64,000 nucleotides of DNA from Escherichia coli (GCF_016026235.1 NZ_CP065613.1); one strand, 5' to 3'. Positions 37,925 to 64,000 are shown, counted from the stretch's first letter. Program-made: numbers and translations. The notes: generated from the letters alone by a model not told the origin.

Positions 37925-38656
37925 CTATTTCCGACACGGTGGCGGCGCATAGCCATTGTTATCTGCCGGAAAGGCTTGTCCAGAGCACGGCGGCAGCGCG
38001 TTTTGCGCTGGGCCTTGTAATTCAAAGGCGGCAAAGCCGATTACCCCGGTATTACGCACATCGCCTTGCGCCGAATTGGCTGCGTAGGAATCAGCAACGT
38101 TGGCGAACTGAAAAGCCGCTTCGGTATGTTTATCTTTGCGGAATCCTTTAATCGCTAACGAATCTCCGGCATTCACAATATAGCCGTTGTTATTCAGCGA
38201 ACCTTGCTTGCCGTTCAGCACATCCATGCCATCAACCGTAGCAACGATCTCGTAGTTGGTGTTACGACTGTAATTACGGACATATAATTGATAATTCATT
38301 CCGACTCTGGCATGGACAATATAGCGTGGTTCATTATTGGATGAATCATAAACACGCGTAATAGGTAGAGAATTAAAATTACCATCGCGAATAGCATATT
38401 CCAGTTCGTTAATACGAATGCTATAAACGCGGTCATAGCCGGAAGGAACATTAGTCGAATAACTAATAACGATCATCTCTGCAGGATCGCGCCAGGCTCG
38501 TTCAGCAGATACGCCCTGGACCGATGAGTGCACATCCCCACCCCAGGCGGTGCCGACATTGCCCGATGCACTGCTATTATACTGCGCATTACTGGAACAA
38601 CCGGCCAGCAGCACGATTAATGCCACCAACGCGCTACGTACTTTCCATTTTTTCAT
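37925..38656 (-). CDS. Hypothetical lipoprotein (243 aa), no family recognised
   Basis: Signal peptide with lipobox LLAGC (MKKWKVRSALVALIVLLAGCSS); lies between speA and speB. Confidence 0.6.
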   Translation of the reverse strand: MKKWKVRSALVALIVLLAGCSSNAQYNSSASGNVGTAWGGDVHSSVQGVSAERAWRDPAEMIVISYSTNVPSGYDRVYSIRINELEYAIRDGNFNSLPITRVYDSSNNEPRYIVHARVGMNYQLYVRNYSRNTNYEIVATVDGMDVLNGKQGSLNNNGYIVNAGDSLAIKGFRKDKHTEAAFQFANVADSYAANSAQGDVRNTGVIGFAAFELQGPAQNALPPCSGQAFPADNNGYAPPPCRK

Positions 38657-60584: not shown

Positions 60585-61841
60585 ATGAATCTTAAGCTGC
60601 AGCTGAAAATCCTCTCTTTTCTGCAGTTCTGTCTGTGGGGAAGTTGGCTGACGACCCTCGGCTCCTATATGTTTGTTACCCTGAAGTTTGACGGTGCTTC
60701 TATTGGCGCAGTTTATAGCTCACTGGGTATCGCAGCGGTCTTTATGCCTGCGCTGCTGGGGATTGTGGCCGACAAATGGTTAAGTGCGAAATGGGTATAT
60801 GCCATTTGCCACACCATTGGCGCTATCACGCTGTTCATGGCGGCACAGGTCACGACACCGGAGGCGATGTTCCTTGTGATATTGATTAACTCGTTTGCTT
60901 ATATGCCAACGCTTGGGTTAATCAACACCATCTCTTACTATCGCCTGCAAAATGCCGGGATGGATATCGTTACTGACTTCCCGCCAATCCGTATCTGGGG
61001 CACCATCGGCTTTATCATGGCAATGTGGGTGGTGAGCCTGTCTGGCTTCGAATTAAGCCACATGCAGCTGTATATTGGCGCAGCACTTTCCGCCATTCTG
61101 GTTCTGTTTACCCTGACTCTGCCGCATATTCCGGTTGCTAAACAGCAAGCGAATCAGAGCTGGACAACCCTGCTGGGCCTCGATGCATTCGCGCTGTTTA
61201 AAAACAAGCGTATGGCAATCTTCTTTATCTTCTCAATGCTGCTGGGCGCGGAACTGCAGATTACCAACATGTTCGGTAATACCTTCCTGCACAGCTTCGA
61301 CAAAGATCCGATGTTTGCCAGCAGCTTTATTGTGCAGCATGCGTCAATCATCATGTCGATTTCGCAGATCTCTGAAACCCTGTTCATTCTGACCATCCCG
61401 TTCTTCTTAAGCCGTTACGGCATTAAGAACGTAATGATGATCAGTATCGTGGCGTGGATCCTGCGTTTTGCGCTGTTTGCTTACGGCGACCCGACTCCGT
61501 TCGGCACCGTACTGCTGGTTCTGTCGATGATTGTTTACGGCTGTGCGTTCGACTTCTTCAACATCTCTGGTTCGGTGTTTGTCGAAAAAGAAGTTAGCCC
61601 GGCTATTCGCGCCAGTGCGCAAGGGATGTTCCTGATGATGACCAACGGCTTCGGCTGTATCCTCGGGGGCATCGTGAGCGGTAAAGTGGTTGAGATGTAC
61701 ACCCCAAACGGCATTACCGACTGGCAGACCGTATGGTTGATTTTCGCTGGTTACTCCGTGGTTCTGGCCTTCGCGTTCATGGCGATGTTCAAATATAAAC
61801 ACGTTCGTGTCCCGACAGGTACACAGACGGTTAGCCACTAA
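60585..61841 (+). CDS. nupG: Nucleoside:H+ symporter
   Basis: ORF trimmed to MNLKLQLKILSF...; 418 aa. Confidence 0.93.
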   Translation: MNLKLQLKILSFLQFCLWGSWLTTLGSYMFVTLKFDGASIGAVYSSLGIAAVFMPALLGIVADKWLSAKWVYAICHTIGAITLFMAAQVTTPEAMFLVILINSFAYMPTLGLINTISYYRLQNAGMDIVTDFPPIRIWGTIGFIMAMWVVSLSGFELSHMQLYIGAALSAILVLFTLTLPHIPVAKQQANQSWTTLLGLDAFALFKNKRMAIFFIFSMLLGAELQITNMFGNTFLHSFDKDPMFASSFIVQHASIIMSISQISETLFILTIPFFLSRYGIKNVMMISIVAWILRFALFAYGDPTPFGTVLLVLSMIVYGCAFDFFNISGSVFVEKEVSPAIRASAQGMFLMMTNGFGCILGGIVSGKVVEMYTPNGITDWQTVWLIFAGYSVVLAFAFMAMFKYKHVRVPTGTQTVSH

Positions 61842-61851
61842 TTACGCAAAG

Positions 61852-61888
61852 AAAAACGGGTCGCCAGAAGGTGACCCGTTTTTTTTAT
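61852..61888. terminator. Bidirectional intrinsic terminator shared by the convergent nupG and speC
   Basis: Hairpin ACGGGTCGCCAGAAGGTGACCCGT flanked by an A-run and a T8 run. Confidence 0.7.
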
Positions 61889-61890
61889 TC

Positions 61891-62205
61891 TTACTTCAAC
61901 ACATAACCGTACAACCGTTTCATGCCATCCGCATCGGTTTCGCTATAAACACCTTGCAGCTCCGGCGAAAATCCCGGCAACAAATACACCCCTTCTTCCA
62001 GTGCAAGGAAATAACGTTGAACCGCCCCACCCCAGACTTCCCCGGGTACCACGCAAAGCACGCCAGGTGGATAAGGCAACGCCCCTTCTGCCGCAATTCG
62101 CCCTTCGGCATCACGAATCCGCACCAACTCCACGTCACCGCGAATATAAGGCAGTATGACTTTCCGTGAGACAGATGCTGGCCAACGTGGGATATTTAAC
62201 GCGGG
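61891..62205 (-). pseudogene. speC: 3' fragment of ornithine decarboxylase speC (about 80-100 C-terminal codons); upstream part displaced by an IS element
   Basis: Frame ends ...RIRDAEGRIAAEGALPYPPGVLCVVPGEVWGG...YGYVLK; native SpeC is about 711 aa; going upstream the frame hits a stop at 62206..62208 next to the IS. Confidence 0.65.
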
Positions 62206-63667
62206 TTAACATCGTTGTCAGAGCCGCATGGGTGAGCTGTTGCTACACCCCGGTATTTCCACCACGGAGGCCAGCATGAACAACAATAACACATTGTACG
62301 TCGGGTTAGATGTTCACAAAGAATCGATTACTGTCGCTTATGCTATCAATTCAGAACCTGTTGAACTGATGGGTAAAATTGGCACATCACCTACTGATAT
62401 TCAGAATCTTTGTAAACGTCTCAGGTCAAAGTCATCGCAGGTCAGTATCGTTTATGAAGCGGGGCCCTGTGGTTATGGACTTTATCGTCGGCTGGTGAAA
62501 TCCGGTTTTGACTGCATGGTCTGCGCCCCCTCACTTATCCCGAAAAAACCGGGGGAGCGGGTTAAAACCGATCGCCGTGATGCCATCAGACTTGTGCGTT
62601 CACTGCGTGCAGGAGATCTTTCTGCTGTCTACGTACCCGGCATTGAAGATGAGGCATTCCGGGATTTGGCCCGGGCATGGGCATCTGCCCGCGATGATTT
62701 ACGGCATGCAAGGCAACGTCTGAAATCGTTTCTTCTGGTTCATGGGGTCCATTATGTCGGGCGAGCAGATTGGGGCCCTGCACACCGACGCTGGCTCAGC
62801 AAATACTCATTCGAAAGTCCCTGGCGACAATTAGCTTTTGACGAACACCGTCGTACAATAGAAGACCGGCAGGCACAATGTGAACGGCTGGAATCCGCCC
62901 TGAAGGAGGCCGTTACCGAATGGAGGCTGTATCCGGTAGTAGAGGCGCTGCAAGCCATGCGAGGGATTCAGTTTATTACTGCGGTTGGATTAATTTCTGA
63001 ACTGGGTGATCTGACCCGTTTTGAACATCCACGACAACTGATGTCATGGTTTGGTATCACGCCATCAGAATATTCATCGGGTGGAAGCAGACATCAGGGC
63101 AGCATTACCAAAGCCGGAAACAGCTATGCCAGAAAGCTATTGGTCGAGGCAGCGTGGAGTTACCGTCATCCGGCACGCATCAGTCCGGCAATACAAAAAA
63201 GGCAGGAAAATTTACCCCGCCCCGTCATTGACAGAGCATGGGATGCTCAACTCAGGCTTTGTAAGAGGTATCGAAAACTTCAGGCCAAAGGAAAGAATGT
63301 CAATATTACAATTGTTGCTGTTGCACGTGAGCTGGCGGGTTTTATCTGGGATATGGGCCGAATAGCAATGTCTGTCGCACAACAACCACAATGTCACAAA
63401 TAAAAAATGAGAATAACCAGTTCCCTGAAGGCGACGTAGCCCGGTACAAGAGTAACCCACGTTAGCGCTTGGCGACGGCGGAACAAAGCTGATTCGCGAC
63501 GTAAGAAAGTGGCAGGCTCATATGACGGACCTCTGTAATGCGGTATCCAACCCGCGAATATCAGCGTGATTCACCGTCGGATTTACTGCTACGTCGCCCT
63601 CAGGGAATTAAACCTAAAAAGAAAATCGTCAAAATTAGAGATTCCGGTTTGACACGGAAAGTCATAT
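62206..63667 (+). mobile_element. IS110-family insertion sequence; both ends are approximate
   Basis: DEDD-type transposase ORF with no terminal inverted repeats; left junction lies between 62134 and 62227; right end not determinable from the sequence. Confidence 0.4.
62276..63403 (+). CDS. IS110-family (DEDD) transposase/recombinase
   Basis: ORF trimmed to ATG giving MNNNNTLYVGLDVHKESITVAY... (375 aa), GGAGG 6 nt upstream; typical IS110 N-terminus. Confidence 0.85.
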   Translation: MNNNNTLYVGLDVHKESITVAYAINSEPVELMGKIGTSPTDIQNLCKRLRSKSSQVSIVYEAGPCGYGLYRRLVKSGFDCMVCAPSLIPKKPGERVKTDRRDAIRLVRSLRAGDLSAVYVPGIEDEAFRDLARAWASARDDLRHARQRLKSFLLVHGVHYVGRADWGPAHRRWLSKYSFESPWRQLAFDEHRRTIEDRQAQCERLESALKEAVTEWRLYPVVEALQAMRGIQFITAVGLISELGDLTRFEHPRQLMSWFGITPSEYSSGGSRHQGSITKAGNSYARKLLVEAAWSYRHPARISPAIQKRQENLPRPVIDRAWDAQLRLCKRYRKLQAKGKNVNITIVAVARELAGFIWDMGRIAMSVAQQPQCHK

Positions 63668-64000
63668 CAGCATTACCAAAGCCGGAAACAGCTATGCCAG
63701 AAAGCTATTGGTCGAGGCAGCGTGGAGTTACCGTCATCCGGCACGCATCAGTCCGGCAATACAAAAAAGGCAGGAAAATTTACCCCGCCCCGTCATTGAC
63801 AGAGCATGGGATGCTCAACTCAGGCTTTGTAAGAGGTATCGAAAACTTCAGGCCAAAGGAAAGAATGTCAATATTACAATTGTTGCTGTTGCACGTGAGC
63901 TGGCGGGTTTTATCTGGGATATGGGCCGAATAGCAATGTCTGTCGCACAACAACCACAATGTCACAAATAAAAAATGAGAATAACCAGTTCCCTGAAGGC
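63668..64000 (+). mobile_element. Second, 5'-truncated copy of the same IS (3' third of the transposase gene plus 3' flank), running to the window edge
   Basis: 63668..64000 is identical to 63100..63432 (offset 568 bp); ORF 63708..63971 repeats the transposase C-terminus. Confidence 0.7.

What the first reader, a model, noticed from the sequence alone, without database searches (positions are those of the whole stretch)
61891..63403. IS110-family element replaces all but the 3' end of speC
Only the last 80-100 codons of ornithine decarboxylase are present (ending ...YGYVLK) before the frame breaks at about 62140-62208. A 375-aa DEDD-type IS110-family transposase gene begins 70 bp further on with its own RBS. 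Any upstream remainder of speC would lie beyond the window. Ornithine-to-putrescine conversion is probably lost, leaving putrescine synthesis to the intact speA-speB route, whose operon is itself altered by the lipoprotein insertion.
Basis: partly seen in the sequence, partly recalled or inferred. Interest (0 to 1): 0.6.

Follow-up and report, generated by a model that had tools for sequence, protein, structure and literature searches.

The report
ISSso6 insertion sequence splitting speC
A known, RNA-guided mobile element (ISSso6, common in Shigella) has landed inside the ornithine decarboxylase gene speC and split it at codon 626; this is an ordinary gene knock-out, not a replacement of the gene.

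Summary
Window 61891-62150 (- strand) is the last 85 codons of speC. A 1520-bp element follows at 62151-63670, with an intact 375-aa DEDD transposase gene at 62276-63403. The element is ISSso6, at 99.9-100% identity to copies named so in RefSeq.

"Replaces" is not supported. Intact speC reads ...CGCGAATATA-AG-CGCTATGCG.... Four near-identical assemblies carry the IS exactly between these bases, with nothing lost, and the 5' 626 codons follow directly.

The window has an extra feature. At the right IS terminus the last 568 bp of the IS begin again (63671-64000 = 63103-63432), so the 5' part of speC lies beyond the window.

The 3' non-coding region (63420-63607) folds as a bridge/seekRNA-type RNA. 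Its two guide blocks covary with the flanks in six Burkholderiales relatives. The usual target is GTA-AG-CGCTAAC, the tip of IS66-family inverted repeats. The speC site, ATA-AG-CGCTATG, is a near-match, so this is an off-target RNA-guided insertion.

speA and speB are full length.

Two points are unresolved: whether the partial repeat is recombinase-made or an assembly artefact, and why intact speC matches a conserved part of the RNA gene at 14 of 15 bases.

Known element, known mechanism; low interest.

The parts
61891..62150 (-). 3' fragment of speC (85 codons + 2 nt + stop). Its last two bases, 62149-62150 (AG), are the crossover core at the left junction.
   Evidence: Homology to intact E. 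coli speC (L001 3192-3451) ends at 62150.
62151..63670 (+). ISSso6, 1520 bp counting one copy of the AG core (63669-63670). This is the DNA inserted between speC ...ATATAAG and CGCTATGCG....
   Evidence: Intact speC compared with the left junction and the right junction in L007. 99.9-100% identity to ISSso6 copies in E. coli and Shigella records.
62155..62168 (+). Left subterminal inverted repeat TATGACTTTCCGTG, 4 nt from the terminus.
   Evidence: I5, 14 nt, 100% complementary; 2 matches in the window against 0.02 expected.
63653..63666 (+). Right subterminal inverted repeat CACGGAAAGTCATA, 4 nt from the terminus including the core.
62276..63403 (+). Transposase/recombinase gene, 375 aa, intact, transcribed convergently with speC.
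   Evidence: The exact protein is listed in 2016 blocks of the public collection. The motif GITPSEYSSG fits G--P----SG (motif from PMC11187229).
63420..63607 (+). Non-coding region predicted to give a bridge/seekRNA-type guide RNA: a closing stem (63421-63440 / 63588-63607) and two arms.
   Evidence: I1. MFE -76.5 kcal/mol, z = -4.65; consensus fold of 7 homologues, 49 pairs, 7 with compensatory changes. No Rfam family matches.
63462..63470 (+). Guide block 1 (TTAGCGCTT), complementary to the target top strand A-AG-CGCTAA. It sits on the 5' side of the internal loop of arm 1.
   Evidence: The block varies among relatives and matches each element's own target at 7-9 of 9 bases in 6 of 7 elements (BspSFA1: 4 of 9). 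It matches other elements' dissimilar targets at 2-5 of 9. speC scores 8 of 9.
63498..63505 (+). Guide block 2 (GACGTAAG), same sense as the target's left flank plus core. It sits on the 3' side of the same loop.
   Evidence: Over its last 7 nt it matches the element's own left flank at 5-6 bases in the 7-element comparison. For speC it is 5 of 7 in that scoring, with 4 contiguous (TAAG).
63552..63566 (+). Conserved segment CCGCGAATATCAGCG. ATATCAG equals the right IS terminus plus core, so it may be a donor-side guide. It is also 14 of 15 identical to intact speC across the insertion point.
   Evidence: D3; nearly invariant in all relatives; 0 of 3000 random 40-mers reach 14 of 15.
63649..63654 (+). 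Outward-facing TTGACA in the right end. In a circle junction it would sit 17 nt upstream of CAGTAT in the left end, forming a possible junction promoter.
   Evidence: Read. The analogy is to junction promoters of ISEc11 and ISEc21 (PMC11187229). Not tested here.
63671..64000 (+). Partial second copy of ISSso6, a repeat of 63103-63432 that starts exactly at the right terminus. If complete, the repeat unit is 568 bp (63103-63670) and would end near 64238.
   Evidence: (D1, 100%). The junction reads GTCATATC-AG-CATTACC and the internal partner reads GGGC-AG-CATTACC.

Best explanation
ISSso6 is an IS110-family element with IS1111-type anatomy: subterminal inverted repeats and a guide-RNA gene downstream of the transposase. 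One copy inserted by RNA-guided, conservative site-specific recombination into codon 626 of speC. Nothing is deleted or duplicated, and the AG crossover dinucleotide flanks both ends.

An RNA made from the 3' non-coding region carries two short guide blocks in one internal loop. These normally direct the element to GTA-AG-CGCTAAC-like sites, the outermost bases of IS66-family terminal inverted repeats.

The speC sequence ATA-AG-CGCTATG matches guide block 1 at 8 of 9 bases and guide block 2 at its TAAG. speC was therefore hit as a pseudo-target. The insertion separates the last 85 codons from the rest, so SpeC is very probably inactive.

The insertion is inherited. At least five other assemblies carry the same left junction.

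In this genome a later event added a 568-bp tandem repeat of the IS right part. It probably arose when the same recombinase joined the right-end junction to an internal AG pseudo-site, either by sister-chromatid exchange or by re-insertion of a partial circle.

Shown here: the junctions, the element's identity, the target consensus, the guide-target covariation, and the intactness of speA and speB. Inferred: that the RNA is made and used, that enzyme activity is lost, and how the partial repeat arose.
For: Junctions. Intact speC reads CGCGAATATA-AG-CGCTATGCG. The window's left junction reads ...ATATAAG|GCAGTATGAC. The L007 right junction reads GTCATATCAG|CGCTATGCG.

Inheritance. The same left junction is in L006/L017, L007, L011 and L021. 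The same right junction is in L006/L017, L007, L013 and L021. A 648-aa 5' speC ORF follows the IS in L006/L017, L007 and L021; in L013 the called 5' speC product is 482 aa.

Identity..

Target. Twelve other junction sets all have G-TA-AG, 11 of them followed by CG. They include several independent sites beside IS66-family genes, one annotated ISEc22.

Guide RNA. The scaffold is conserved and two blocks vary with the flanks of each of 7 homologues. The first block's own-target identity is 9, 8, 7, 4, 8, 8 and 7 of 9, against 2-5 for unrelated targets. The consensus fold places both blocks on opposite sides of one internal loop. Single-sequence fold z = -4.65. The block order, with the top-strand match 5' of the bottom-strand match, and the downstream non-coding region are as described for IS1111-type seekRNAs (PMC11187229).

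Partial repeat.. Similar right-end-anchored repeats with AG junctions occur in L006 and L018.
Against: No experiment shows that ISSso6 makes or needs this RNA, and Rfam has no matching family. One relative (Burkholderia sp. SFA1) matches its own target at only 4 of 9 bases with guide block 1. A 9-mer such as TAAGCGCTA should occur some tens of times in a 4.6-Mb genome by chance. The guide match alone therefore does not explain why speC in particular was hit and kept. What follows position 64000 in this genome was not seen. The exact window junction was not found in any other collection. L006 and L018 come from one assembly, so support for the recombinase origin of partial repeats rests on two assemblies in all.
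Confidence: 0.85

Rival explanations
1. One reading: the IS came with, or caused, a deletion that removed the 5' 626 codons of speC, so only the 3' stub is left in the genome.
For: Within the window no 5' speC sequence is visible. The IS right end is followed by IS sequence, not by speC.
Against: Four near-identical assemblies with the same junction carry the 5' part directly after the IS, with no base lost. The sequence after the right end is a tandem repeat of the IS's own last 568 bp. A second right end, and then speC, is therefore expected about 240 bp past the window end.
Confidence: 0.06
2. The partial second copy (63671-64000) is an assembly artefact. The real locus is the plain insertion seen in L007.
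For: The exact junction was found nowhere else. IS copies are classic sites of mis-assembly. The only other examples of such repeats come from one assembly, GCA_031665325.1.
Against: All four such junctions (window, two in L006, one in L018) begin exactly at an IS terminus and have the AG core on both partners. That is expected of the recombinase, not of an assembler. IS110-family elements are reported to form alternative circles and to use direct strand transfer (PMC12288879; bioRxiv 10.1101/2025.10.25.684509; abstracts read).
Confidence: 0.25
3. The speC site was chosen because its left flank mimics the IS right end. Intact speC looks like a right-end/target junction (a pseudo-attR), and the donor-side part of the RNA helped to capture it.
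For: Intact speC CCGCGAATATAAGCG is 14 of 15 identical to the conserved RNA-gene segment 63552-63566, in register with the AG core. None of 3000 random 40-mers from the window reaches 14 of 15. ATATCAG in that segment equals the right terminus plus core.
Against: In the consensus fold CCGCG is base-paired within the RNA, which leaves 7 of 8 effective matches. None of the other 12 junction sets has such a left flank. The product is a normal insertion, which needs no such mimicry. This was a post-hoc observation.
Confidence: 0.15

Closest known systems
ISSso6 (ISfinder name; IS110 family), as annotated in Shigella sonnei 53G, S. boydii, S. dysenteriae and enteroinvasive E. coli
   Same: 99.9-100% nucleotide identity over all 1520 bp. 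The protein is the same 375-aa transposase. ISSso6 is listed among the IS of S. sonnei 53G, S. boydii Sb227 and EIEC in Hawkey et al. 2020 (PMC7373316 and its supplement).
   Different: Nothing in the element itself differs. Only the site (speC rather than an IS66-family end) and the attached 568-bp partial repeat are unusual.
IS1111-type elements with a seekRNA (ISEc11, ISKpn4, ISPa11; Siddiquee et al. 2024, PMC11187229)
   Same: Subterminal inverted repeats. A long non-coding region downstream of tnp. Two short target matches in the RNA, with the top-strand match 5' of the bottom-strand match, overlapping at the insertion point. No target duplication. A possible junction promoter.
   Different: The transposase is 375 aa, against 330-350 aa given for IS1111-type. 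Its place in the family tree was not tested here. No RNA or transposition data exist for ISSso6.
IS621 bridge RNA recombinase (Durrant et al. 2024, from my own knowledge; Hiraizumi et al. 2024, PMC11208158)
   Same: A DEDD/RuvC domain plus a Tnp domain with a serine. A guide RNA with an internal loop that reads both strands of the target around a 2-nt core. The core AG is the reverse complement of IS621's CT.
   Different: The RNA gene lies 3' rather than 5' of tnp. Subterminal repeats are present. A donor-binding loop could not be assigned with confidence, because the candidate segments never vary among the relatives.
[quoted passage not shown]
   Same: The preferred target is a conserved sequence of another mobile element. 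For ISSso6 it is the GTAAG|CG tip of IS66-family inverted repeats.
   Different: The target family differs. The speC insertion is an off-target event in a housekeeping gene.

Membership tests
IS110 family (RNA-guided DEDD transposases) | N-terminal DEDD/RuvC-like domain (Pfam PF01548) | tested here: met
   residues 9-153, E = 6.7e-11.
IS110 family (RNA-guided DEDD transposases) | C-terminal Tnp domain (PF02371) with the G--P----SG serine motif | tested here: met
   residues 223-297, E = 1.6e-23. GITPSEYSSG is read in the translation. The motif definition is from PMC11187229.
IS110 family (RNA-guided DEDD transposases) | Score above the curated cut-off of NCBIfam NF033542 | tested here: met
   273.9 bits against a cut-off of 140, profile positions 1-339 of 343.
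IS110 family (RNA-guided DEDD transposases) | Conservative insertion with no target-site duplication beyond a shared core dinucleotide | tested here: met
   Intact speC compared with both junctions. Only AG is present at both ends.
IS110 family (RNA-guided DEDD transposases) | Sequence-specific target that matches short segments of a structured RNA encoded in the non-coding region | tested here: met
   Target consensus. Guide-flank covariation in 7 homologues. Fold. That the RNA is expressed and required is not testable here.
IS110 family (RNA-guided DEDD transposases) | Circular intermediate with abutted ends | not testable with these tools
   Only a sequence-compatible junction promoter is seen: TTGACA, 17 nt, CAGTAT.
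IS1111 subgroup | Subterminal inverted repeats with short terminal extensions | tested here: met
   I5: 14 nt, perfect, 4 nt from each end.
IS1111 subgroup | Long non-coding region downstream of tnp, with the top-strand match 5' of the bottom-strand match | tested here: met
   267 bp lie after the stop codon. The criterion is from PMC11187229.
IS1111 subgroup | Transposase related over its full length to that of IS1111, 330-350 aa | tested here: inconclusive
   The length is 375 aa, outside the stated range. No phylogeny or comparison with IS1111 itself was run.
ISSso6 (named element) | Near-identity over the full length to reference copies | tested here: met
   99.9-100% over positions 1-1520. 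The name is as RefSeq annotates those copies; ISfinder itself was not queried.
speC (biosynthetic ornithine decarboxylase) | Full-length ORF of 711 codons | tested here: not met
   Only CDS nt 1877-2136 lie left of the IS. The fragment covers profile positions 640-719 of 720.

The most novel reading that the evidence does not exclude
The right-end-anchored partial repeats in the window, L006 and L018, all joined at AG, are natural footprints of a bridge/seekRNA recombinase acting on pseudo-sites inside or beside its own element. The speC site was captured because it resembles a right-end/target junction that the donor-side part of the RNA can read. If so, donor-side guides would contribute to off-target choice and to local rearrangements in wild genomes.
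Probability: 0.15. Interest if true: 0.5.

Novelty: already known. Interest (0 to 1): 0.2.

Why it matters
As a gene knock-out it matters little. An IS-interrupted metabolic gene is the rule in Shigella-type genomes, and the arginine route to putrescine (speA, speB) is intact in the window.

Two by-products may be useful to specialists. First, a sequence-level assignment of the ISSso6 guide blocks and its normal target, the GTAAG|CG tip of IS66-family inverted repeats, supported by covariation in distant relatives. Second, a natural off-target event with a known mismatch pattern, plus possible recombinase-made partial repeats. These bear on how specific bridge/seekRNA recombinases are in real genomes.

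Tried and rejected
Rfam scan of 61800-64000 at E <= 1 gave only two chance-level hits at the nupG/speC terminator and nothing for the IS non-coding region.

I looked for the window's own IS-to-IS junction in several places.
- Exact look-up of two ORFs spanning or following it. One is not on record; the other occurs only on contigs of 303-515 bp.
- Megablast of a 70-nt junction probe against RefSeq E. coli genomes and PLSDB. The 'full' hits are two pieces 572 bp apart, that is, ordinary copies.
- Exact scan of JGI metagenomes: 0 hits.

The speC/IS left junction gave 0 hits in the GTDB species representatives, so the organism could not be named that way.

Literature searches for speC with Shigella and insertion sequence, for ISSso6, and for the assembly accessions found no paper describing this insertion. 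The ISSso6 site table for S. sonnei in Hawkey et al. could not be mapped to speC.

I first took CCGCGAATAT at 63552 for the left-target guide because it matches the speC flank. I rejected that when the relatives showed the segment is conserved whatever the target.

A donor-binding loop could not be assigned. ATATCAG and TACTGC match the two termini but never vary, so covariation cannot test them.

The organism is probably a Shigella, possibly S. sonnei or a close relative. This rests on where ISSso6 occurs and on the 5.03-Mb size of CP032523.1; it is an inference, not shown.

Full report
WHAT IS IN THE SEQUENCE

The gene order yggX, mltC, nupG on the + strand, then speC on the - strand, is that of E. 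coli. After the shared nupG/speC terminator (61849-61886), the - strand carries the end of speC at 61891-62150, ending ...YGYVLK.

Megablast of 61700-62200 against 5,426 complete E. coli genomes finds this stretch in 5,424 of them. No hit extends past 62150-62158, so none of those genomes has the junction seen here.

In intact speC the sequence continues ...CACCGCGAATATAAG CGCTATGCGCATCC... (L001 3436-3465). In the window it continues ...CACCGCGAATATAAG GCAGTATGACTTTCCGTG.... With speC at L001 3192-5327, the break lies after CDS nucleotide 1876, inside codon 626 of 711. That leaves 85 codons and 2 nt to the left of the break.

THE ELEMENT

The ORF at 62276-63403 encodes 375 aa and has GGAGG 6 nt upstream of its ATG. 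It has the two Pfam domains of IS110-family enzymes, PF01548 and PF02371. It passes the NCBIfam model 'IS110 family RNA-guided transposase' with 273.9 bits against a cut-off of 140.

The DNA from 62151 to 63670 is 99.9-100% identical to copies that RefSeq annotates as 'IS110-like element ISSso6'. These lie in enteroinvasive E. coli chromosomes and plasmids and in Shigella sonnei, S. boydii and S. dysenteriae plasmids. ISSso6 is listed among the IS of S. sonnei 53G, S. boydii Sb227 and EIEC by Hawkey et al. 2020 (PMC7373316).

A perfect 14-nt inverted repeat lies 4 nt inside each end, at 62155-62168 and 63653-63666. The element has a further 267 bp.

INSERTION, NOT REPLACEMENT

An exact look-up of the window's NupG protein returned assemblies that are 99.95-100% identical to the window over 11-13 kb.

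- In L007 (GCA_901482675.2) the window sequence is matched without a gap up to 63671, and then reads ...GTCATATCAG CGCTATGCGCATCC.... This is speC resuming at exactly the next base after the break. A 648-aa ORF follows: 626 speC codons plus 22 read into the IS end. yqgH and yqgA come next.
- The same right junction is in L013, L021 and L006/L017. The same left junction is in L011, L021 and L006/L017.

The inserted DNA is therefore 62151-63670. No speC base is lost. The only bases present at both junctions are AG...ATATA-AG-GCAG... on the left and ...ATATC-AG-CGCT... on the right. This is the signature of conservative recombination at a 2-nt core, as described for IS621 with its CT core (PMC11208158). 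AG is the reverse complement of CT.

THE END OF THE WINDOW

In the window the right terminus is followed by CATTACCAAAGCC..., not by speC. This is the IS's own sequence from 63103 onward, and 63671-64000 equals 63103-63432 at 100% identity. The internal partner reads GGGC-AG-CATTACC, so AG is again shared.

If the repeat is complete, a second right end lies near 64238 and speC resumes there. That is an expectation, not an observation.

Similar repeats anchored exactly at an IS terminus occur elsewhere:
- in L006, a 205-bp unit at the right end, with partner CGTT-AG-CGCTTGG;
- also in L006, a 302-bp repeat of the speC 3' end at the left end, with partner GCAA-AG-AAAAACG;
- in L018, a 161-bp unit, with partner GAA-AG-TGGCAGG.

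L006 and L018 belong to one assembly. The window's junction was not found in any other collection. I consider recombinase action on internal pseudo-sites the better explanation, because the breakpoints sit exactly at the termini and always at AG. An assembly artefact is not excluded.

HOW THE SITE WAS CHOSEN

Twelve other ISSso6 junction sets were read. All have G-TA-AG on the left, and 11 have CG on the right. Examples are GACGGCTGTA-AG-CGCTAACGGG, GCACGTA-AG-CGTACAGCCTG and GTTCGTA-AG-CGTCAACGGAG.

Several lie directly outside IS66-family genes (TnpA, TnpB, DDE_Tnp_IS66). One of these is annotated ISEc22, and one sits at the far end of another IS66-family element in the opposite orientation. 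IS66-family terminal repeats start with GTAAGCG (example in PMC12888890). The normal target is therefore the tip of IS66-family inverted repeats. The speC site, A-TA-AG-CGCTATG, differs at the G and at the last two positions shown.

THE GUIDE RNA

Full-length relatives of 67-71% identity occur on Burkholderia, Cupriavidus, Variovorax and Paraburkholderia plasmids. Aligning their 3' non-coding regions with 63420-63607 shows a conserved scaffold and two variable blocks.

- The first block follows AACCCRCG. It is the reverse complement of each element's own target, core plus right flank. Identity in a fixed register is 9, 8, 7, 4, 8, 8 and 7 of 9, against 2-5 for dissimilar targets.
- The second block precedes GYGGCAGGCT. 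It repeats each element's own left flank plus core, with 5-6 of 7 matching.

RNAalifold puts the two blocks on opposite sides of one internal loop, closed by a distal hairpin. Seven of the 49 predicted pairs keep pairing through changes on both sides. The ISSso6 sequence alone folds with z = -4.65.

The position of the non-coding region, the subterminal repeats and the order of the two matches are those reported for IS1111-type seekRNAs (PMC11187229). For ISSso6 the blocks are TTAGCGCTT (63462-63470) and GACGTAAG (63498-63505). speC matches the first at 8 of 9 bases and the second at TAAG. The insertion is thus best read as an off-target, RNA-guided event.

No Rfam family covers this RNA. Its expression was not tested.

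AN UNEXPLAINED MATCH

Intact speC, CCGCGAATATAAGCG, is 14 of 15 identical to 63552-63566, CCGCGAATATCAGCG, in register with the core. None of 3000 random 40-mers from the window reaches 14 of 15 against the non-coding region.

The segment is conserved in all relatives, so it is not a target guide. Its ATATCAG equals the right terminus plus core, and TACTGC at 63584-63589 is complementary to the left terminus GCAGTA. Both may be donor-side guides, but they never vary, so this cannot be tested by covariation. Whether the resemblance of speC's left flank to the IS right end helped capture the site is open.

CONSEQUENCES

The 5' ORF lacks the last 85 residues. The 3' stub has no promoter of its own that I could identify. 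SpeC is very probably inactive, which is an inference.

speA and speB match their family profiles from end to end, so the arginine route to putrescine is encoded. Whether speF or a second speC exists elsewhere cannot be told from this window.

I found no paper describing speC::ISSso6. The organism is probably a Shigella, inferred from where ISSso6 occurs. The junction is absent from complete RefSeq E. coli genomes and from the GTDB representatives.

VERDICT

This is a known element using a known mechanism to make an ordinary pseudogene.

Noticed in passing
window 63671-64000 (repeat of 63103-63432): A partial second copy of ISSso6 starts exactly at the right terminus of the first. The junction is GTCATATC-AG-CATTACC. 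It would carry a second copy of the guide-RNA gene if it is complete beyond the window.
   Followed up: partly
L006 11265-11868 and 13384-13591; L018 2892-3052: One related assembly (GCA_031665325.1) has three more short tandem repeats anchored at ISSso6 termini, of 302, 205 and 161 bp. Each is joined at an AG.
   Followed up: partly
window 63552-63566 compared with intact speC (L001 3439-3453): 14 of 15 identity between a conserved segment of the IS non-coding region and the uninterrupted speC target, in register with the core. No random 40-mer of the window does as well.
   Followed up: partly
window 37925-38656 (- strand): A 243-aa ORF with a lipoprotein signal peptide (…LLAGC) lies between full-length speA and speB and has no NCBIfam match.
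   Followed up: no
L032 9523-13441 and 23019-26156; L014, L015, L019: ISSso6 copies sit at the outer tip (GTAAG|CG) of IS66-family elements such as ISEc22, at either end. One IS family therefore uses another's terminal repeat as its landing site.
   Followed up: yes
L020 2892 onward compared with L014 2892 onward: One ISSso6 copy is followed by CCTGAACCG... instead of CGTACAGCCTGAACCG.... Seven bases of the adjacent IS66-type repeat are missing next to the right terminus.
   Followed up: no
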